A stretch of 64,000 nt of DNA. Origin: a virus (Duplodnaviria; Caudoviricetes). Positions 35,929 to 42,378 of this stretch are shown here, piece after piece. The notes beneath the pieces were generated by a model. The model was not told the origin of the DNA, made no database searches, and was given only the letters and a program-made list of their open reading frames with translations. Position numbers and translations under genes: made by a program. The DNA is taken from positions 15,607 to 79,606 of the IMG/VR virus record IMGVR_UViG_3300032319_000568, one strand, 5' to 3'. Each line of letters begins with the position of its first letter. Positions within the stretch are counted from its first letter, which is position 1.

Positions 35929-36198
35929 ATGAACAAGACAGGCCGTAAGGCAACCGCAGTAAACGAAATCACAGATCGCAATTTTACTATTGTTGATCTA
36001 GCTAACATCAACTCCACCGTTAAAACGCCGACAATTCGGATGCATATTAAACGAAGTGTGACTGCTGGACGATATAAGATCTCCGGATCACAGAAGACTG
36101 GTAAGCGTGGTAAGCCAAGTATTGTGTATACATACAATTCAACTCCCACTGTTACCGCAACCAACACCGTTGAATCTACTCAGACTTCTACAAATTAA
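35929..36198 (+). CDS. small basic putative DNA-binding protein
   Basis: 89 aa, GKRGKPSIVY wing-like motif. Confidence 0.6.
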   Translation: MNKTGRKATAVNEITDRNFTIVDLANINSTVKTPTIRMHIKRSVTAGRYKISGSQKTGKRGKPSIVYTYNSTPTVTATNTVESTQTSTN

Positions 36199-36399
36199 AC
36201 AGCACAAAGATTGGGGATTGATAAAAAAGCTTGTTAATCCCTTTTTCTACCACTATTTATTTTTAAAAGTAGTATATGGGAAAGTCATTCAAAGATCGGC
36301 GTACACGCAGCGAAGGAAATTGTCGCAACAAATCAACCAAAAAGGTTAACAAAAAGTGGCAAAACACTGAGGTTAAACCATCACGGTTCAATTCAAAAT

Positions 36400-36582
36400 A
36401 TGAAGACGAAGACAACGCAAACAGTTATTAATAATCTCAAATCAAAAATCACAGATCGAAAACTACAACTAACAGATCTATACGCGGAATATTACTATAA
36501 AGCTGCTATCAAACAAACAGTAGACGAAAAGATTGGCGTTGAACCAAATCGTGATCTACTACACTACGTCGAAAAAAATTAA
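36400..36582 (+). CDS. hypothetical protein
   Basis: 60-aa ORF. Confidence 0.5.
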   Translation: MKTKTTQTVINNLKSKITDRKLQLTDLYAEYYYKAAIKQTVDEKIGVEPNRDLLHYVEKN

Positions 36583-36606
36583 ATTAAACATTTAAATAAA
36601 AGTTAT

Positions 36607-36894
36607 ATGAAAGACACTACACTCAAGCAGTTGGTACGTGACCGCAATGGTCAACCCCGTGGTATGGTTGTTGCCACAGTAATTGATAATACTATCCGAT
36701 TCGGTTGGAGTCATACCAATACAAAAGCGGGTGATCGATTTGATAAATGCAAAGCACTCACTATTGCTCTAGGTCGAGCTGAAAATGGTTGGGGTCCAAA
36801 AACAATTGTGCCTGTATCTACAGCCAAGATTCTAAATAAGATGATTGATCGATCCGTTCGTTATTACAAGAACGTTCCAGTCTACGGTATTTAA
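36607..36894 (+). CDS. hypothetical phage protein
   Basis: FGWS..N.KAGDRFDK..ALTIALGRA. Confidence 0.65.
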   Translation: MKDTTLKQLVRDRNGQPRGMVVATVIDNTIRFGWSHTNTKAGDRFDKCKALTIALGRAENGWGPKTIVPVSTAKILNKMIDRSVRYYKNVPVYGI

Positions 36895-36911
36895 TTCAAA
36901 TATTTATAAAC

Positions 36912-37244
36912 GTGGACAAATATATTACCGACAATTTTACTGGGTCAATTGACGATCTATTAAATCATTGTTCTAATCTAGATACTTCAAAAGTTGAAGA
37001 ACAAGTCAACACCGAAGAAAAAGAAGCCTGTATTCAAATAATCATGAAAGAACTTGAATGTAATGAAACCGAAGCAGAAGTTATCTATAACGACCTCGTG
37101 GCGGCCGAAGTTAAAGAAACAGTTGACAAGATGGTAACAGAAGGTCTACTATATGTATCTGGTCACAACGAAGACGGTGAACCACTGTTTCAGCTAACTG
37201 AACTTGGTAAAGATGTTCGTAACAAACTGGGTGACGGTAAGTAA
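36912..37244 (+). CDS. hypothetical protein (winged-helix-like C-terminus)
   Basis: GTG start after ATATTTATA; FQLTELGK. Confidence 0.6.
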   Translation: MDKYITDNFTGSIDDLLNHCSNLDTSKVEEQVNTEEKEACIQIIMKELECNETEAEVIYNDLVAAEVKETVDKMVTEGLLYVSGHNEDGEPLFQLTELGKDVRNKLGDGK

Positions 37245-37263
37245 GTAAAAACTATATTATAAC

Positions 37264-37344
37264 GCTCCGGTAATGGCGGGGACTTCTAAGCCCTAAGTGC
37301 ATAATTGGATGAAAATGGGGGTTCAACTCCCTCCCGGAGCGCCA
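37264..37344 (+). tRNA. trnR: atypical tRNA-Arg(UCU) lacking a D-arm
   Basis: acceptor GCTCCGG/CCGGAGC, G73-CCA, loop CTTCTAA, T-arm GGGGG-TTCAACT-CCCTC; only 7 nt between acceptor and anticodon stems. Confidence 0.65.
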
Positions 37345-37405
37345 TTTTTGATCATATTCATAAATTTGTATATATTTATATGTTCAAACTTCTATTAAAA
37401 AGAAG

Positions 37406-37433
37406 TTGATTCTTTGAAAATTTGCGGTAAGAT
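37406..37433 (+). promoter_or_regulatory. sigma70-type promoter (GGTAAGATA class)
   Basis: TTGATT-16nt-TAAGAT. Confidence 0.65.
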
Positions 37434-37453
37434 AAAGAAGTAATAAGTATTTC

Positions 37454-37545
37454 GTTCTTTCAGCATGGTGGGAGAAGCACTCCTCTGGAACATCTACGAA
37501 TGGCGGAACTGCCTCGGCCTTTAACCGAAGGGGGTCACCAACGAA
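37454..37545 (+). ncRNA. unassigned ~90-nt structured RNA
   Basis: closing TTCTTTC/GAAAGAA and TGGTG/CACCA helices enclosing two hairpins; between two promoters. Confidence 0.4.
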
Positions 37546-37560
37546 AGAATGAAATGATAG

Positions 37561-37588
37561 TTGACAACAAAAGAATGTGTGGTAAGAT
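37561..37588 (+). promoter_or_regulatory. sigma70-type promoter (GGTAAGATA class) for tRNA array
   Basis: TTGACA-16nt-TAAGAT. Confidence 0.8.
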
Positions 37589-37600
37589 AAAAAAGTAGTA

Positions 37601-37613
37601 AGTTCTTTAACAA
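37601..37613 (+). promoter_or_regulatory. boxA-like antitermination element (further copies at 38057, 38241, 38441, 39238, 39737, 39918)
   Basis: AGTTCTTTAACAA versus rrn boxA TGCTCTTTAACAA. Confidence 0.65.
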
Positions 37614-37622
37614 ATTTTTAAT

Positions 37623-37699
37623 GGCCTTGTAGCTCAGTTGGTAGTAGCAGAAGCCTTTTAAGCTTTTGGTCGTGGGTTCGAGTCCCACCGGGGCCACCA
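37623..37699 (+). tRNA. trnK: tRNA-Lys(UUU)
   Basis: cloverleaf, GAAGC-CTTTTAA-GCTTT, TTCGAGT, encoded CCA. Confidence 0.93.
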
Positions 37700-37706
37700 T
37701 TTTAAC

Positions 37707-37781
37707 GGTCTGTTCGTCTATCGGCTAGGACTCCGGATTTTCACTCCGGTAAGAGGGGTTCGATTCCCCTACAGACTACCA
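37707..37781 (+). tRNA. trnE: tRNA-Glu(UUC)
   Basis: cloverleaf, CCGGA-TTTTCAC-TCCGG, TTCGATT, CCA. Confidence 0.93.
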
Positions 37782-38056
37782 CTTTGTACGTACAAACATA
37801 TGTGAGTGTAGGACACTTTAAATAAGGCAAAACATATTAAGCGCATGTGTTTAATATAAAGTAGCAGCATATGAAATTTTATGTTTGGTTGTTTAACTAG
37901 GAAAAACAACTTGGTGGAGGGCGTTAAACCATAACACCCCTAGAGTATGGAAGATCTCTTAAAAAACTTCTTGGTTGCGGGCTTAGCAAGTGGTATACTT
38001 TGTTTGTTGGGTGGATAGAGTATTCAATAAAACACACCCAACTAGATTTTTAAGAT
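37782..38056 (+). ncRNA. unassigned ~270-nt structured RNA between tRNAs
   Basis: no ORF; multiple hairpins (GTTGTTT/AAACAAC, GGGCGTTA/TAACACCC, GTTGGGTG/CACCCAAC). Confidence 0.45.
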
Positions 38057-38070
38057 AGTTCTTTAAAATT

Positions 38071-38157
38071 TGCGGAGTGTGAGAAGTCAGGTATCTCAAC
38101 GGTTTCATAATCCGTCGCCTATGTGCCTCGCAGGTTCAAATCCTGCCTCCGCTACCA
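38071..38157 (+). tRNA. trnM: tRNA-Met(CAU), initiator-like, extended variable region
   Basis: U1:U72 mismatch, loop TTCATAA, T-arm GCAGG-TTCAAAT-CCTGC, CCA; 87 nt. Confidence 0.8.
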
Positions 38158-38164
38158 TTTCAAT

Positions 38165-38236
38165 GGCTGGGGCTTCAGCAAGCGAGATTCTTTCATACGG
38201 AATCTTTAATGAGGGCAGCACTCATACCAGCTACCA
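38165..38236 (+). tRNA. atypical CAU-anticodon tRNA
   Basis: 7-bp anticodon stem with loop TTCATAC, 4-nt D-loop, T-loop GGCAGCA, CCA. Confidence 0.6.
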
Positions 38237-38260
38237 TTTTAGTTCTTTAACAAAACAATT

Positions 38261-38332
38261 TGCAGATTGGTGTAATGGCAACACAATACGCTCATAACGT
38301 ATAGTTCACGTTCAAGTCGTGGTCTGCTCCCA
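38261..38332 (+). tRNA. trnM: tRNA-Met(CAU)
   Basis: ATACG-CTCATAA-CGTAT, TTCAAGT, U1:U72 mismatch, C73-CCA. Confidence 0.8.
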
Positions 38333-38338
38333 TTTAGT

Positions 38339-38432
38339 GGTTCCGTAGTTTAACGGTAGAACGCAACGCTTATAACGTTGATAAGCTCTAGATTTGAGCA
38401 CGGTCTCGGTTCGAATCCGGGCGGAACCACCA
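38339..38432 (+). tRNA. trnI: tRNA-Ile(UAU) with long variable arm
   Basis: CAACG-CTTATAA-CGTTG, variable hairpin GCTC-TAGATTT-GAGC, TTCGAAT, A73-CCA; 94 nt. Confidence 0.85.
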
Positions 38433-38516
38433 TTTTTAATAGTTCATTGAAAATTAAAATTAAATTGGTAGACAAAATAATTTGTATTTTGAGTTGTGTC
38501 TACCATATATATTCAT

Positions 38517-39221
38517 ATGAATAAATTATGTGAATATGGATGTGGATTGCCAGCAATTAATCAACTAAAAAATGGAAAGTTTTGTTGTTCAAAACACAAC
38601 AATAGTTGTCCTGAAAATAAAAAGAAAAACGCTGAAGGATTGAAACAATCATATGAAAGTGGGGTTAGAAAACCAGCTGGATATGTTTATGAAAAATTAT
38701 CTGATGATGTAAAGAAAAGAATGGCGTGGTCTAGAGGTAAATCATCTTATGATGACACTAGAATAAAAAACAAATATTCAGATGACCAAATTTTTAAAGA
38801 AAATACAACCATTTCAAATAAAGTTGTAAAAAGCAGATTAATGTCAAATCCAAATTTTGAACATAAGTGTGAGTTATGTTCTACTAAAGAATGGTATGAC
38901 CCTTTTGAAAGTAAAACTAAGCCAGTAAATCTAGAATTAGACCATATAAATGGCAATGAAAGAGACAACAGAAAAGAAAATTTAAGATTGATTTGTTCTA
39001 ATTGTCATAGTTTTACTCCTACATATAAAGGGAGAAACATTAATAAATTTCTAAATCGGGGCGATAGAAAAGTTTCTGATGAAATTCTTTTACAAGAGTT
39101 GAAAACAAAAAATATAAGACAATCTTTAATTTCAGTAGGATTATGTGCTTCTGGTGAAAATTATGAAAGATGTAAAATTTTGAAAAGTCAGTTGACTTCA
39201 GAAGAAAATGTGGTAAGATGA
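38517..39221 (+). CDS. free-standing HNH endonuclease inside tRNA array
   Basis: CEYGCG..CCS, CELC, ELDHINGNERDNRKENLRLICSNCHSFTPTYKGRN. Confidence 0.9.
   Translation: MNKLCEYGCGLPAINQLKNGKFCCSKHNNSCPENKKKNAEGLKQSYESGVRKPAGYVYEKLSDDVKKRMAWSRGKSSYDDTRIKNKYSDDQIFKENTTISNKVVKSRLMSNPNFEHKCELCSTKEWYDPFESKTKPVNLELDHINGNERDNRKENLRLICSNCHSFTPTYKGRNINKFLNRGDRKVSDEILLQELKTKNIRQSLISVGLCASGENYERCKILKSQLTSEENVVR
39192..39219 (+). promoter_or_regulatory. sigma70-type promoter embedded in the HNH 3' end
   Basis: TTGACT-16nt-TAAGAT. Confidence 0.75.
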
Positions 39222-39260
39222 AAGAGTAGTAAGTGATGGTTCTTTGTAAGTAATTTAAAT

Positions 39261-39594
39261 GGGCGTGTAGACCAGCGGAAGAGTCAACAGACTTTAGCGT
39301 AAATTGAGTGCTTAGAGAGAAATCTCTAAAGTAGAATTTGTCAAATTCGGGGAAAGCTTAACTGCCAATCCCGAGCCAAGCTCAGAAATGAGAAGGTGTA
39401 GAGACTTAACGGCAAACATCTAAAACAGAAATGTTATGATGAAGAGAAAGTCCAGACCACAAACGATGAAATCAGTTGTATATGATGGGCTATAATCCAT
39501 TTAAATTACAACTTGTCAAAAGACCGTCGGTAGTGAAAACTATAGTGGTACGAAAATCTGTAAAGCGGTGGTTCGAATCCACTCACGCCTACCA
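39261..39594 (+). tRNA. trnL: tRNA-Leu(UAA) split by a group I intron (exons 39261-39294 and 39553-39594)
   Basis: spliced 76-nt cloverleaf, ACAGA-CTT|AAAA-TCTGT, T-arm GGTGG-TTCGAAT-CCACT, A73-CCA. Confidence 0.92.
39295..39552 (+). mobile_element. ORF-less group I intron, 258 nt, trnL(UAA)/IC3-like
   Basis: P AAATTCGGGGAAA, Q AATCCCGAGCCAAG, R GAAGGTGTAGAGACT, S GAAGAGAAAGTCCAG; follows U34, ends in G. Confidence 0.92.
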
Positions 39595-39607
39595 TTTTCA
39601 ATTGAAT

Positions 39608-39734
39608 AAGTTGTAGCGAATGGCGCAGCAGGAGGTCGGTACCCAAAGTTGTAGACACGGGGAAAACCGCCGATTAACGATATAACTATGAATAGACGTT
39701 ATGTATGTGGGTTCAAGTCCCATCAACTTTTTCA
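39608..39734 (+). ncRNA. tRNA-like RNA with expanded anticodon region, no encoded CCA
   Basis: acceptor AAGTTG/CAACTT, D-arm GCG-AATGG-CGC, T-arm GTGGG-TTCAAGT-CCCAT. Confidence 0.55.
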
Positions 39735-39749
39735 ATAGTTCTTTAAATT

Positions 39750-39910
39750 TTTGGGTGAAGGGTGATATTATATCGTTTTTACTTGTTTTTCTCCTTATTT
39801 CTACTAATGTAGATGTAGGATAAGCTGCGAGTTAAAATCTGAGGTTAACTAGGATTTTAATTTCAAAATGATGCTTAATAAAACAATAGTCACTAATAAG
39901 CCCCAATAAT
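39750..39910 (+). ncRNA. unassigned ~160-nt structured RNA containing a Cas12a-repeat-like hairpin
   Basis: bounded by boxA-like sites; TTGGG/CCCAA closure; TTAAAATC/GATTTTAA hairpin. Confidence 0.4.
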
Positions 39911-39934
39911 TTTCAATAGTTCTTTAACAATTTA

Positions 39935-40234
39935 AGATAGTGGCGGAACAACAATTAGTTTAGTTGTAACGCACAATATATGGCGTTGAAAAACGTTGTA
40001 TATTGGTTGGAGTAGGAGTCATGGAGGGTAAATCTATGGAGAATTTGAGGTCGTACAACCTTGAATTTGAGCGTATCGGGATCGTAGCTAAAATATATGA
40101 TAAATCGTAGCCCGTTGTGGGGAAAACAAAATCCCATCAGTCATTAACACAAGGAGTAATTAACCGTGTGGACTGTGGATGAATAACCAGTCGTGATTCT
40201 GAAACTTGGAGGTAATCATTAGTCCTTCCTATTT
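39935..40234 (+). ncRNA. unassigned ~300-nt structured RNA with tRNA-like ends
   Basis: AGATAG/CTATTT closure, TGGCGGAA D-loop-like, GGAGG/CCTTC T-like stem, several internal hairpins. Confidence 0.45.
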
Positions 40235-40244
40235 GAATTTAAAC

Positions 40245-40317
40245 GCGGGTCAGGTGTAAAGAGAGCACGTTAGTCTACCAGACTAAAAGGCGAAATGCAA
40301 AGTTCGGACCCGCTCCA
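40245..40317 (+). tRNA. trnG: tRNA-Gly(ACC)
   Basis: G1C2G3/C70G71C72, U73-CCA (Gly identity); TTAGT-CTACCAG-ACTAA; slightly short T-loop. Confidence 0.8.
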
Positions 40318-40325
40318 GTTTTAAT

Positions 40326-40398
40326 GCGATATTAGTGTCATGAGGAGCACGCTCACATTCCAGTGAGTAGGCCGGTGCAAGTCCGAGATATCGCTCCA
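40326..40398 (+). tRNA. trnG: tRNA-Gly(UCC)-like with 8-nt anticodon loop and weak T-stem
   Basis: GCGATAT/ATATCGC, U73-CCA; GCTCA-CATTCCAG-TGAGT. Confidence 0.65.
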
Positions 40399-40407
40399 GT
40401 TTTTGAT

Positions 40408-40484
40408 AGTCCTGTAGCTCAACAGAGCAGAGCAATCAGTTTATAACTGATAGGTTGTGGGTTCGAAGCCCATCGGGACTACCA
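40408..40484 (+). tRNA. trnI: tRNA-Ile(UAU)
   Basis: ATCAG-TTTATAA-CTGAT, GTGGG-TTCGAAG-CCCAT, A73-CCA. Confidence 0.9.
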
Positions 40485-40493
40485 TTTTATAAC

Positions 40494-40607
40494 GGATCAA
40501 TAGCTCAATTCGGTTAGAGCAGTGAACTCTTTCGCTGCTTATAAACTAAAAGGTATAAGTAGAAAATAATTCATCGGTTATCGGTTCAAGTCCGGTTTGA
40601 TCCACCA
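40494..40607 (+). tRNA. tRNA with 36-nt insertion in the anticodon loop (spliced anticodon CAU or CUU)
   Basis: canonical D-arm, T-arm, acceptor GGATCAA/TTGATCC, A73-CCA; anticodon stem GTGAA/TTCAT encloses 43 nt instead of 7. Confidence 0.8.
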
Positions 40608-40609
40608 TT

Positions 40610-41011
40610 TTAATAAATCTTTAGTCCTAGAGATTTTCTCCCTTTACCTTTATTTTTTGCTCTACAAGTATCAAGTTGTGAATCACAATTAGGACATATT
40701 AAACGAAAATTAGAATAAGAATTGTTATTAGCATATCCGTCAATGTGGTCTACCCACAACCTTATAGGTTTACTATTCCAATTATTTCCGTCTATACCAC
40801 AAAGTGAACATTTATTTCCATAATCTTCACATAACATTGAATATATCAATGGTCTCGTAGGCACTTTTGGATACGAACCATTTCTAATTTGATTTTTAAT
40901 TGCAGTGGTTTGATAATGTTGTTGACATTTATTACTACAATAAATTCCCTTTGATACAGATGAATGATATGTAAATATTTTATTGCATGTTTTACAATTT
41001 GAATTAATCAT
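40610..41011 (-). CDS. free-standing HNH endonuclease
   Basis: CKTC..YCSNKC, CSLCG, WVDHIDGYANNNSYSNFRLICPNCDSQ. Confidence 0.88.
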   Translation of the reverse strand: MINSNCKTCNKIFTYHSSVSKGIYCSNKCQQHYQTTAIKNQIRNGSYPKVPTRPLIYSMLCEDYGNKCSLCGIDGNNWNSKPIRLWVDHIDGYANNNSYSNFRLICPNCDSQLDTCRAKNKGKGRKSLGLKIY

Positions 41012-41151
41012 TTCTCCCCTTTCTTTTTATAATATCTTTCTAATGCTTGTTCTTTTTTAACTTGTTGATTTTTGAAATAATACCGCATTTGTCTTTCACG
41101 TCGTGCGTTTAATTTTTCTTCATCTGTGATATATTTTTCTTTTCTTCCCAT
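41008..41151 (-). CDS. small basic protein (47 aa, not in ORF track)
   Basis: MGRKEKYITDEEKLNARRERQMRYY..; CTATTTAT upstream; ATGA overlap with HNH. Confidence 0.6.
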   Translation of the reverse strand: MGRKEKYITDEEKLNARRERQMRYYFKNQQVKKEQALERYYKKKGEK

Positions 41152-41204
41152 ACTAATAAATAGTGATTGAATATATCAAAGTAGAAAAAAAGTAGAAAAA
41201 TTTG

Positions 41205-41233
41205 TTGACTTTTTTAAAAAACTTTGGTAGTAT
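41205..41233 (+). promoter_or_regulatory. sigma70-type promoter
   Basis: TTGACT-17nt-TAGTAT with TG extension. Confidence 0.65.
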
Positions 41234-41254
41234 AAACAATAGAAAACGAAGCGT

Positions 41255-41494
41255 ATGGCACATTTAATTAAACTAAATCAATTGGATCTCAATCACGATA
41301 ATACCCGCACTTATATTCCAATTTTATTTAATTTGGATAGGGCAATTAGTATGGAACCAAGTCCTAGTGGTAAGCACACTGTTATTAATACATCTCACCA
41401 GAATGGTGGATCTATTAGAGTTAAGGAAACACTTGATGAAATATTAAAGTTGAGCAGTGGCTGTTATGGTGACAAAACTCGACTGAATGGATAG
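41255..41494 (+). CDS. small hypothetical protein (FlbD-like beta fold possible)
   Basis: LFNLD.AISME, T.I, IRVKETLDEI. Confidence 0.55.
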   Translation: MAHLIKLNQLDLNHDNTRTYIPILFNLDRAISMEPSPSGKHTVINTSHQNGGSIRVKETLDEILKLSSGCYGDKTRLNG

Positions 41495-41529
41495 TTACAG
41501 TAACATCCTATTAAAGGGGGTTTTATTTT

Positions 41530-41832
41530 ATGGAGTTTAAGCATGTTTATATGGGTACAAACTGTGAAGGTAGAGATGAATATGTTTGCACTATTATCAA
41601 CAATCGTGGTGTGGATGTGGGTCATTGTAAGTATTATAAGCCTAATGTATATGATGAAGTGGTAATAATTGAGTTTATTGATATTGGGTATGAACATCGT
41701 AGGCGTGGGTATGCGACGGCTATGGTGAATGAGTTACAGAGTAGGTATACATTAAAATGGGATTACAGGTTCAGTGAGGTGGGTAGAAAATGGTATGATG
41801 GGTTGTTAAAAAAACAAGTGATAAGTGTTTGA
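41530..41832 (+). CDS. GNAT-family acetyltransferase-like protein
   Basis: IEFIDI...HRRRGYATAMV acetyl-CoA motif. Confidence 0.75.
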   Translation: MEFKHVYMGTNCEGRDEYVCTIINNRGVDVGHCKYYKPNVYDEVVIIEFIDIGYEHRRRGYATAMVNELQSRYTLKWDYRFSEVGRKWYDGLLKKQVISV

Positions 41833-41874
41833 ATATTATATTTATTTATAATAACAATTTAAATATATTATATT

Positions 41875-42378
41875 ATGACCAAAGAAGATTTGAAACAACT
41901 AATTTACGAAGTATACGAAGAAGAAATGGCAGAAACCAAGAAAAAGGGATCTGCTAAAGCGGAACCAACAAAAGAAGTTCCTAAAGCTGTTAAGAAAGTT
42001 GTAGCTCCAGCTAAGAAAGTTGTTGCTGCTGTTAAAAAGGTTGAAGAACCAACTAATAAAGTAACTAAGAATTTGGTACATCACATTGAGAAACGAGAAA
42101 AGTCGAATAAGTTTACGGGTGATAAAGCTGATGCTGATTTATTTGACAAAGTGGGCAAGATGCTTAAGAGGCATGTTGGTAGAACATTAGAAGAGTCTGA
42201 TGTTGAGAAGATGATGGAAGAAATGGAATGTGAAGAATGTTATGAAGAAGGTGCAAAGCCTGACTTTTTGGATCTGGATAAAGATGGTAACAAGAATGAG
42301 CCAATGAAGAAAGCCGCAATGGATGCTAAAACGAGTAAAAAGTTAAAAGAAATTATAGAAAAAGCTAAAAACATTTAA
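41875..42378 (+). CDS. Lys/Glu-rich modular protein with EF-hand-like PDFLDLDKDG motif
   Basis: repeated KKVV units; DxDxDG loop. Confidence 0.7.
   Translation: MTKEDLKQLIYEVYEEEMAETKKKGSAKAEPTKEVPKAVKKVVAPAKKVVAAVKKVEEPTNKVTKNLVHHIEKREKSNKFTGDKADADLFDKVGKMLKRHVGRTLEESDVEKMMEEMECEECYEEGAKPDFLDLDKDGNKNEPMKKAAMDAKTSKKLKEIIEKAKNI

What the first reader, a model, noticed from the sequence alone, without database searches (positions are those of the whole stretch)
40494..40607. 36-nt hairpin mini-intron in a tRNA anticodon that cannot be group I
An otherwise perfect tRNA carries TTTCGCTGCTTATAAACTAAAAGGTATAAGTAGAAA (about 40530-40565), which folds as a hairpin. It has no catalytic core and no terminal G. 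Excision at 34/35 gives CAU (Met/Ile2); an alternative register gives CUU (Lys). Removal would need protein endonuclease and ligase activity, which bacteria do not normally use for tRNA introns. It points to a phage-specific tRNA splicing or activation system, or to an anticodon-masked decoy.
Basis: partly seen in the sequence, partly recalled or inferred. Interest (0 to 1): 0.75.

Follow-up and report, generated by a model that had tools for sequence, protein, structure and literature searches.

The report
Hairpin mini-intron in phage tRNA(CAU)
A lake jumbo phage's methionine/isoleucine-type tRNA gene is split in the middle of its anticodon by a 36-base hairpin that cannot splice itself, sits next to a homing-endonuclease gene and recurs at the same spot in other phages, so phages may have an unproven protein-driven way of splicing tRNA.

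Summary
Window 40494-40607 is a complete tRNA gene with a 36-nt hairpin (40530-40565) in its anticodon. Insert-free orthologues fix the anticodon as CAU, with the insert between C34 and A35. The Lys(CUU) register, which ARAGORN -i also gives, is wrong.

The insert is not a group I intron, has no BHB motif, and is single-copy.

- **Patchy distribution:** it is absent from the closest relatives (L030-32, L055). It is nearly identical in L129/L205 and in a complete 296-kb relative (G001). The three alleles carry U-A, G-C and A-U at anticodon-stem pair 28:42.
- **Recurrence:** six unrelated hairpins of 28-40 nt occupy the same CTC|ATAA site in other phage tRNA(CAU) genes.
- **Endonuclease link:** four different endonuclease genes abut these tRNAs, including HNH 40610-41011 here.
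- **Enzymes:** intron-bearing genomes at least 73% complete encode Rnl1- or Rnl2-type RNA ligase, and the two complete ones also a kinase. They encode no RtcB or EndA.

RNA-library contigs show only the unspliced form, so splicing is inferred, not shown. This scan noted similar hairpin mini-introns on other phage DNA. The closest published precedent is the 'enigmatic' Lak megaphage tRNA introns (PMC6784885).

The parts
40494..40529 (+). 5' exon of tRNA(CAU): acceptor 5' strand GGATCAA, D arm, anticodon-stem 5' strand GTGAA, then C32 U33 C34
   Evidence: Rfam tRNA alignment. Insert-free orthologues L055 and L030-32 align up to ...ACTC.
40530..40565 (+). 36-nt hairpin insert (mini-intron) between C34 and A35. 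Stem is 40535-40543 with 40554-40562, loop is 40544-40553, and outer UUU/AAA pairs can reach exon A35.
   Evidence: Folds (z = -3.0). Absent from L030-32 and L055. Present with 1-3 changes in L129/L205 and in G001/L206. Single copy in the window and in G001. The sense strand folds better than the antisense strand, -7.9 against -2.6 kcal/mol.
40566..40607 (+). 3' exon: A35 U36 A37 A38, anticodon-stem 3' strand TTCAT, variable loop, T arm, acceptor 3' strand, A73 and encoded CCA
   Evidence: Rfam alignment. The last 34 nt are 100% identical to insert-free L055. The in-silico joined exons are called tRNA(cat).
40610..41011 (-). Free-standing HNH homing-endonuclease gene (133 aa) starting 3 nt beyond the tRNA 3' end, on the opposite strand
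   Evidence: PHROG phrog_10822 'HNH endonuclease', E 1.3e-17. The Pfam HNH match is only 16.4 bits, below the cut-off. It is 37-40% identical to the HNH_3 protein at 38496-39221. The same gene, 98.6% identical, follows the same intron-bearing tRNA in L129/L205. Insert-free orthologues have a terminator there instead.

Best explanation
This is a phage tRNA(CAU) gene, either elongator Met or Ile2 (which one is undetermined). It is interrupted between anticodon bases C34 and A35 by a member of a recurrent class of small RNA-hairpin inserts found in phage tRNA genes.

Shown: the insert is a discrete gain/loss unit. It is patchily distributed among related jumbo phages and is usually flanked by a free-standing homing-endonuclease gene.

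Inferred: it behaves as a mobile cassette of the collaborative-homing type. The endonuclease would cut insert-free tRNA(CAU) alleles of co-infecting relatives, while the insert disrupts the target in its own genome.

Inferred: the tRNA stays functional because the hairpin is removed from the transcript by proteins. An unidentified endoribonuclease would cut at the two helix/loop junctions while the tRNA body holds the halves together. If the cuts leave 5'-OH ends, a P-loop kinase would heal them. A phage Rnl1- or Rnl2-type RNA ligase would then reseal the anticodon loop, as T4 Pnkp/Rnl1 do for cleaved tRNA-Lys (established knowledge).
For: (1) Anatomy and the CAU register.

(2) Three alleles share the same intron, differing at only 1-3 of 36 nt. 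Their anticodon stems differ by fully compensated changes at pair 28:42 (U-A in the window, G-C in L129, A-U in G001). All other exon differences lie at unpaired or wobble-tolerant positions. These stems lie 3-8 nt from the insert, where homing would normally co-convert them. Stem maintenance after insertion is therefore the simpler reading.

(3) Six further, unrelated hairpins of 28-40 nt sit at the identical CTC|ATAA site in otherwise intact phage tRNA(CAU) genes: L061, L105, L158/L184, L170, L175 and L180. All nine distinct genes give a standard tRNA(cat) once the insert is removed. Every insert is more structured than shuffles, z from -2.5 to -5.2.

(4) In 6 of 7 families the hairpin is more stable on the tRNA-sense strand than on the antisense strand, owing to G-U pairs. 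This points to an RNA-level structure.

(5) In 5 of 7 families the first intron base is U and can pair with exon A35, which brings the two splice sites to the base of one helix.

(6) Endonuclease genes from four different families abut the tRNA 3' end: the window and L129 (phrog_10822), G001 (phrog_2255), L175 (HNH_2, phrog_1271) and L180 (phrog_15137). The syntenic insert-free alleles have none. The rate is 4 of 7 loci against 2 of 15 insert-free controls, Fisher p = 0.054.

(7) RNA ligase genes occur in every intron-bearing record at least 73% complete (G001 Rnl1-like, G002 Rnl2-like, G004 Rnl1-like) and in fragment G006. G001 and G002 also encode a kinase, and G002 a Thg1-like protein. Among insert-free records at least 90% complete, 3 of 8 records (1 of 5 related groups) have a ligase.

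(8) G001 has no other class-I tRNA(CAU). It also carries short structured inserts in two further tRNAs.

(9) None of 120 pattern hits in bacterial and archaeal genomes was a true insert, against 11 of 25 hits in viral contigs.
Against: No spliced RNA was seen. The only RNA-library contig over the gene (X18, depth 8, the G001-type allele) keeps the insert. In the same run the neighbouring group I tRNA does show a spliced or intronless junction. No endonuclease candidate was identified. There is no BHB motif, EndA or RtcB. The distance between the hairpin base and the splice sites is not uniform: L105, L158, L170 and L180 leave 2-6 unpaired intron bases, which argues against a simple structure-measuring nuclease. 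The insert is absent from the nearest relatives, and phage tRNAs are usually dispensable, so a selfish inactivating insertion could persist. The endonuclease enrichment is only marginal, and L206 has the intron without one. The window's own contig is 26% complete and holds no ligase.
Confidence: 0.5

Rival explanations
1. Selfish scar with no splicing. The hairpin is only a target-site disruption that protects the genome from the adjacent homing endonuclease and hitch-hikes with it. The interrupted tRNA is dead, which is tolerated because the host supplies tRNA-Met/Ile2 and the phage has other CAU and UAU tRNAs.
For: The link to endonuclease genes and the absence of the insert from the nearest relatives. 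Only unspliced RNA was seen. No splicing endonuclease is known or found. The window has two other tRNA(CAT) genes and two tRNA(TAT) genes. No such inserts appeared among 120 hits in cellular genomes, where this tRNA is essential.
Against: Exons show no decay in nine independent genes. Stem pair 28:42 changed compensatorily among alleles that share the intron. A point mutation would give the same immunity, yet seven unrelated inserts are all stable hairpins, favoured on the sense strand through G-U pairs. The intron is 92-97% conserved between phages with about 55% protein identity. G001 has no other class-I tRNA(CAU).
Confidence: 0.3
2. The RNA works unspliced. The insert-bearing molecule would be a tRNA look-alike, for example a decoy or sponge for host anticodon nucleases, or a tRNA pool kept masked until late infection.
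For: The unspliced form is present in an RNA library. The acceptor, D and T arms are intact, so RNase P and CCA processing should still work. Phage tRNAs are known to counter tRNA-targeting defences (PMC10264068, title and abstract seen).
Against: No evidence is specific to this idea. It does not explain why the inserts sit exactly at C34|A35 of CAU tRNAs, nor why endonuclease genes accompany them. A decoy for an anticodon nuclease would be expected to keep an intact anticodon loop.
Confidence: 0.1
3. A ribozyme-dependent intron: either a degenerate relic of a group I intron or one spliced in trans by a resident ribozyme. Candidates are the group I intron at 39295-39552 or the very abundant conserved RNA at about 39930-40235.
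For: Group I introns occur in the same tRNA cluster. In homologous tRNA(CAU) genes L009 and L028 they sit one nucleotide away, at U33|C34. A highly expressed structured RNA of unknown function lies 300 nt upstream.
Against: The insert shows no sequence similarity to any of these introns. The exon ends in C and the intron ends in A. The seven intron families share no guide-like sequence. The abundant RNA is also present in L055 and L041/42; L055's tRNA(CAU) gene is insert-free.
Confidence: 0.04
4. An archaeal or eukaryal-type intron in a tRNA-Lys(CUU), as ARAGORN -i annotates it (intron at position 39, 36 nt), cut by a BHB-specific endonuclease.
For: The ARAGORN -i call.
Against: Orthologues read CAU. 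The bases needed for the 4-bp central helix of a BHB at 34/35 (G29 A30 A31 C32 against intron bases 31-34, UAGA) do not pair, as the sequence shows directly. There is no EndA or RtcB in the complete relatives. The other six inserts would give six different anticodons in that register.
Confidence: 0.01

Closest known systems
'Enigmatic' introns in Lak megaphage tRNAs (Devoto et al. 2019, PMC6784885; read)
   Same: These are short inserts in phage tRNA genes that Rfam cannot classify. They are identical wherever present but patchily distributed among related genomes. Their boundaries are defined by alignment with insert-free alleles. No mechanism is known.
   Different: The Lak phages are gut Prevotella phages with a recoded genome, and at least one of their introns is itself tRNA-shaped. 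Here the insert is a plain 36-nt hairpin in a freshwater jumbo phage, at C34|A35 of tRNA(CAU), and it is coupled to a free-standing HNH gene. That paper did not report such a coupling.
Collaborative homing of ORF-less group I introns with free-standing homing endonucleases (reviewed in PMC3984707; T4 mobE/I-TevIII in PMC2790892, listed and not read)
   Same: A free-standing endonuclease gene lies next to an ORF-less intron. The intron is present or absent as a unit among related phages. In the known cases the intron interrupts the endonuclease target.
   Different: The known cases involve self-splicing group I ribozymes, whereas this insert has no catalytic capacity. Whether the endonuclease target coincides with the insertion site was not tested here.
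Group I introns in bacterial and phage tRNA anticodon loops (Rfam RF00028)
   Same: They occupy the same place in the gene: the anticodon loop, position 34/35 in the window's own tRNA(UAA) and 33/34 in the homologous tRNA(CAU) genes L009 and L028. They are also associated with HNH genes.
   Different: Group I introns are about 200-260 nt with a P3-P9 core, an exon-terminal U and an omega-G. The insert has none of these.
T4 tRNA-Lys restriction and repair (PrrC cleavage, Pnkp healing, Rnl1 sealing). Established knowledge; reviewed in PMC3400036, which was listed and not read.
   Same: Phage ligase and kinase rejoin a tRNA broken in the anticodon loop while the tRNA body holds the halves together. 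Rnl1-like or Rnl2-like ligases are encoded by the complete or near-complete intron-bearing genomes, and kinases by the two complete ones.
   Different: That system repairs a single cut made by a host defence nuclease. It does not remove an intervening sequence, and no equivalent pair of cuts has been shown.
Intervening sequences (IVS) in bacterial 23S rRNA, excised by RNase III without re-ligation (established knowledge)
   Same: They are hairpin inserts in a stable RNA gene, patchily distributed, and removed by a protein nuclease.
   Different: IVS stems are much longer, and the rRNA works in fragments. A tRNA cut in its anticodon must be re-ligated. Stems of 9-16 bp are marginal RNase III substrates.

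Membership tests
Group I intron (RF00028) | Conserved catalytic core (P3-P9) detectable by the covariance model | tested here: not met
   cmscan at E <= 1 over 36000-42000 finds RF00028 only at 39285-39470 (71.4 bits) and nothing at 40530-40565. 36 nt cannot hold the core.
Group I intron (RF00028) | 5' exon ends in U (a U-G pair in P1) and the intron ends in G (omega-G) | tested here: not met
   The exon ends in C34 and the intron ends in A. By contrast the group I introns at 39295-39552 and in L009/L028 follow U and end in G.
Archaeal/eukaryal protein-spliced tRNA intron (BHB/EndA) | Bulge-helix-bulge: two 3-nt bulges holding the splice sites, separated by a 4-bp helix | tested here: not met
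   For sites at 34|i1 and i36|35, the central helix would pair G29 A30 A31 C32 with intron bases 31-34 (UAGA), and none of the four pairs forms. The predicted fold is stem, 3x4 internal loop, hairpin. This check was done by hand using my recollection of BHB geometry.
Archaeal/eukaryal protein-spliced tRNA intron (BHB/EndA) | Splicing endonuclease (PF01974) and RtcB ligase (PF01139) available | tested here: not met
   Neither is found in G000-G003, including the complete G001 and G002. Positive controls were detected. The host genome is unknown.
Unclassified short phage tRNA introns ('enigmatic', PMC6784885) | A short insert in an otherwise intact phage tRNA gene, with no Rfam class and boundaries set by insert-free alleles | tested here: met
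Unclassified short phage tRNA introns ('enigmatic', PMC6784885) | Near-identical sequence wherever present, with patchy presence among related genomes | tested here: met
   33-35 of 36 nt are identical in L129/L205 and in G001/L206. The insert is absent from L030-32 and L055.
Unclassified short phage tRNA introns ('enigmatic', PMC6784885) | Removal from the RNA (being an intron in the strict sense) | tested here: inconclusive
   One RNA-library contig is unspliced. No 36-nt skip was seen in four metatranscriptome runs. These were contigs only, at depth about 8.
Collaborative-homing cassette | A free-standing homing-endonuclease gene next to an ORF-less intron | tested here: met
   HNH at 40610-41011, 3 nt from the tRNA. 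Equivalent genes lie in G001, L175 and L180.
Collaborative-homing cassette | The endonuclease cleaves the insert-free allele at or near the insertion site and spares the insert-bearing allele | not testable with these tools
   This needs a cleavage assay on L055/L030-type DNA against window-type DNA.
tRNA(CAU), Met or Ile2 | Cloverleaf with a CAU anticodon once the insert is removed | tested here: met
   ARAGORN calls tRNA-Met(cat), 78 nt, and orthologues read CAT. Met and Ile2 (lysidine) cannot be told apart from sequence. No TilS homologue was found in G001.

The most novel reading that the evidence does not exclude
Hairpin mini-introns are a distinct class of mobile intron in phages. They are non-catalytic RNA hairpins that spread with free-standing homing endonucleases. 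An ordinary endoribonuclease would excise them and a phage Rnl1/Rnl2-type ligase (with kinase) would reseal the tRNA. That would be the first protein-dependent tRNA splicing pathway in the bacterial world.
Probability: 0.4. Interest if true: 0.9.

Novelty: new variant of a known kind. Interest (0 to 1): 0.68.

Why it matters
Textbook knowledge holds that bacterial and phage tRNA introns are self-splicing group I ribozymes, and that protein-catalysed tRNA splicing belongs to archaea and eukaryotes. This locus is a clean, testable counter-example. It has an unambiguous splice position and matched insert-free and insert-bearing alleles. An adjacent endonuclease can be assayed, and complete relatives supply candidate ligase and kinase genes. 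If the hairpin is spliced, phage RNA ligases would have a biosynthetic role beyond repair, and a new kind of mobile intron would be defined. If it is not spliced, the locus shows homing endonucleases sacrificing phage tRNA genes, which matters for reading phage tRNA repertoires.

Tried and rejected
- **BHB motif:** none, checked by hand.
- **Repeated or MITE-like element:** the insert core occurs once in the window at up to 3 mismatches. BLAST over G001 and several loci gives only chance short matches.
- **Relic of a group I intron:** no similarity to the window's intron or to those of L009/L028.
- **Close phage records in GenBank/INPHARED:** none for 40200-40700.
- **Exact 3'-exon 24-mer in viral contigs:** no hits.
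- **Metagenome scan for more alleles:** returned only the L129-type (L205) and G001-type (L206, L207) alleles, too little variation for covariation analysis of the hairpin.
- **RNA evidence:** four metatranscriptome runs show no 36-nt skip. Two X15 contigs join an insert-free 5' half directly to the 3' exon, but their 5' half has a different anticodon-stem sequence. They therefore come from a relative and cannot distinguish a spliced from an insert-free form. Coverage gaps in those contig data are not evidence.
- **TilS:** sought to decide between Ile2 and Met; absent in G001.
- **PNK3P phosphatase:** absent.
- **Literature:** five searches found no paper on a mechanism for short phage tRNA introns.

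Full report
**Setting.** The window is bases 15607-79606 of a 79.6-kb IMG/VR virus record that CheckV rates 26% complete. It is about 30% G+C and encodes a phage lysozyme domain, HNH endonucleases and an intein-bearing SNF2 helicase. Its closest DNA holders are lake and freshwater metagenomes. A tRNA cluster lies at about 37.2-40.6 kb.

**The observation.**
- Rfam's tRNA model matches 40494-40604 at 52.9 bits, with one long insertion in the anticodon loop.
- Default ARAGORN misses the gene. ARAGORN with intron search reports tRNA-Lys(ctt) with a 36-nt intron.
- Read directly, the gene has a normal acceptor stem, D arm, 5-bp anticodon stem (GTGAA/TTCAT), T arm, A73 and an encoded CCA. There are 43 nt where 7 are expected.
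- The extra 36 nt (40530-40565) fold into a 9-bp stem with a 10-nt loop, extendable by three U-A pairs. MFE is -7.9 against -2.4 +/- 1.9 kcal/mol for shuffles, z = -3.0.

**Which anticodon.** A 17-mer from the D arm and anticodon stem found 29 viral contigs. Twenty-seven of them read ...GTGAACT-CAT-AATTCAT... with no insert. Using the neighbouring 498-aa protein as a handle, I fetched syntenic loci. In L030-L032 (93-94% protein identity) and L055, the orthologous tRNA sits in the same place and reads ACTCATAATT without an insert. L055 is 100% identical over the last 34 nt of the gene. The insert therefore lies between C34 and A35 of a CAU anticodon, and for CAU the boundaries cannot slide. The CUU register is wrong. 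Removing 40530-40565 in silico gives a 78-nt tRNA(cat) that default ARAGORN accepts. Sequence cannot decide between Met and Ile2, and G001 has no TilS homologue.

**What it is not.**
- It has no group I core, its exon ends in C, and it ends in A. The same Rfam run finds a genuine group I intron at 39285-39470. RNA contigs place that intron's boundaries at 39295-39552.
- Homologous tRNA(CAU) genes in L009 and L028 carry group I introns one nucleotide away, at U33|C34. These show no similarity to the mini-insert.
- A bulge-helix-bulge at 34/35 would need G29-C32 to pair with intron bases 31-34 (UAGA), and none pairs.
- EndA and RtcB are absent from G000-G003, two of which are complete genomes.
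- The insert is single-copy, so it is not a dispersed repeat.

**Distribution.** Degenerate pattern scans found the same intron in two further allele types.
- L129/L205 has one substitution.
- G001/L206/L207 has 35 nt with three differences. G001 is a complete 295,831-bp genome.
- G001's proteins are only about 55% identical to the window's, yet the intron is 33 of 36 nt identical.
- The three alleles have different anticodon stems: GTGAA/TTCAT, GGGAA/TTCCT and AAGAA/TTCTT. Pair 28:42 is U-A, G-C and A-U respectively.
- All other exon differences fall at unpaired or wobble-tolerant positions.
- These stems lie 3-8 nt from the insert, where homing normally co-converts flanking DNA. The simplest reading is that the stem was maintained by selection after the insert arrived. 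Independent transfer into pre-existing alleles cannot be excluded.

**A recurrent design.**
- Six unrelated hairpins occupy exactly the same CTC|ATAA site in other phage tRNA(CAU) genes: L061 (35 nt), L105 (28), L158/L184 (37), L170 (30), L175 (40) and L180 (34).
- All nine distinct genes become standard tRNA(cat) when the insert is removed.
- Every insert is more structured than shuffles, z from -2.5 to -5.2.
- In 6 of 7 families the tRNA-sense strand folds better than the antisense strand, because of G-U pairs. Examples are -12.3 against -2.0 and -7.9 against -2.6 kcal/mol. This argues for an RNA structure rather than a DNA palindrome.
- In 5 of 7 families the intron begins with U, which can pair with exon A35. 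The hairpin helix then runs up to both splice sites. L105 and L158 do not fit this pattern.
- The same pattern gave 120 hits in bacterial and archaeal genomes and none was a true insert.
- G001 also has a 30-nt insert in a tRNA(GAA), a 51-nt structured insert in a tRNA-Asn(GUU), and a group I intron in a tRNA-Arg(UCU).

**Link to homing endonucleases.**
- Three nucleotides beyond the tRNA, on the opposite strand, lies a 133-aa ORF (40610-41011). It matches PHROG HNH-endonuclease families at E 1e-17. Its Pfam HNH match is below the cut-off.
- L129/L205 have the same gene at 98.6% identity.
- G001 has a different HNH gene (phrog_2255, E 3e-34) in the same position.
- L175 has an HNH_2 protein and L180 a PD-(D/E)XK-like endonuclease abutting their tRNAs.
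- The insert-free syntenic alleles run straight into a terminator.
- Among 15 representative insert-free tRNA(CAU) loci, 2 have an HNH gene within 400 nt. Among intron loci with a readable flank, 4 of 7 do. Fisher p = 0.054, which is suggestive rather than conclusive.
- L206 carries the G001-type intron with two small unrelated ORFs in place of an endonuclease gene.
- This layout matches collaborative homing as described for ORF-less group I introns (PMC3984707). The difference is that the insert here has no ribozyme.

**Enzymes.**
- G001 encodes a T4 Rnl1-like ligase (PF09511, 57 bits) and an AAA_33 kinase about 4 kb away.
- G002, which is complete and hosts L175, has an Rnl2-like ligase, an HNH, a kinase and a Thg1-like protein within about 3 kb.
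- G004 (73% complete) has an Rnl1-like ligase. Fragment G006 has both ligase types.
- Among insert-free tRNA(CAU) records at least 90% complete, 3 of 8 records (1 of 5 related groups) have such a ligase.
- The trend fits a cut-and-rejoin route.

**RNA evidence.** Four river and freshwater metatranscriptome runs were laid on 37200-41200, as contigs only.
- One X18 contig (483 nt, depth 8) covers 40494-40610 with the insert still present. It is the G001-type allele, with 1-nt deletions at 40511 and 40552.
- No 36-nt skip was seen.
- Two X15 contigs join an insert-free 5' half to the 3' exon, but the stem sequence is different. They come from a relative and are uninformative.
- In the same runs the group I tRNA shows a junction skipping 39295-39552.
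- Splicing of the mini-insert is therefore not shown. With contigs at this depth, it is not excluded either.

**Conclusion.** I commit to this reading: a mobile, non-catalytic hairpin intron in tRNA(CAU), coupled to a homing endonuclease, and removed by an unidentified endoribonuclease followed by ligation with a phage RNA ligase (confidence 0.5). The main rival is an unspliced selfish insertion that kills a dispensable tRNA (0.3). Other windows of this scan noted similar hairpin and tRNA-shaped inserts in unrelated phages. Those notes pointed me to Devoto et al. 2019, where I confirmed that Lak megaphage tRNA introns are described as enigmatic and given no mechanism. Five literature searches found no paper on a mechanism.

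Noticed in passing
window 39930-40235: A very abundant RNA. Metatranscriptome contig depth reaches about 24,000, against tens for neighbouring tRNAs. Contigs in two runs (X16, X17) join 40235 back to 39929, which suggests a circular or tandem RNA of about 307 nt. There is no Rfam match. It is 94-97% identical in relatives whose proteins are about 55% identical, and 80% identical in L129, with 10 covarying pairs in a multi-helix consensus fold. It follows a TAAGAT -10-like box. Function is unknown.
   Followed up: partly
window 39261-39594: A tRNA with a 258-nt group I intron (39295-39552) after U34, giving anticodon UAA on a class-I body with a short variable loop. RNA contigs in two runs show the exon-exon junction, which is either a spliced form or an intronless relative. 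An HNH gene at 38496-39221 lies just upstream.
   Followed up: partly
window 40245-40318 and 40326-40399: Two tRNA-like genes that ARAGORN and Rfam miss. Each has a 7-bp acceptor stem and ends in TCCA. The anticodon-like loops are CUACCAG and AUUCCAG, and the D and T arms are atypical. Both are conserved in L030-L032. There the second gene shows stem changes and what appears to be an 8-nt loop.
   Followed up: partly
window 38071-38157 and 38339-38432: tRNAs with long, class-II-like variable arms but anticodons CAU and UAU. This combination is not expected for Met or Ile. The two CAU tRNAs (38071 and 38260) also have a 1:72 mismatch.
   Followed up: no
window 39600-39735: A tRNA-like element of about 120 nt with an acceptor-like stem, a good T arm and a large internal insertion. 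The Rfam tRNA match is weak at 25 bits.
   Followed up: no
G001 (L190-L204), complement 199394-199496 and complement 199596-199721: Further short structured inserts in the complete relative. One is a 30-nt hairpin near position 32/33 of a tRNA(GAA). The other is a 51-nt two-hairpin insert within or next to the anticodon of a tRNA-Asn(GUU), while an intact second tRNA-Asn lies nearby. There is also a 267-nt group I-size intron in a tRNA-Arg(UCU).
   Followed up: partly
L009 and L028 (viral contigs): Homologous tRNA(CAU) genes carry a group I intron of about 215 nt between U33 and C34, one nucleotide from the mini-intron site.
   Followed up: partly
L209 (G002:174092-177379) and L186: A compact tRNA-repair-like gene cluster in a 221-kb phage: a Thg1-like 3'-5' polymerase, an AAA_33/tRNA-ligase-kinase-like kinase, an HNH endonuclease and an Rnl2-like ligase.
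   Followed up: partly
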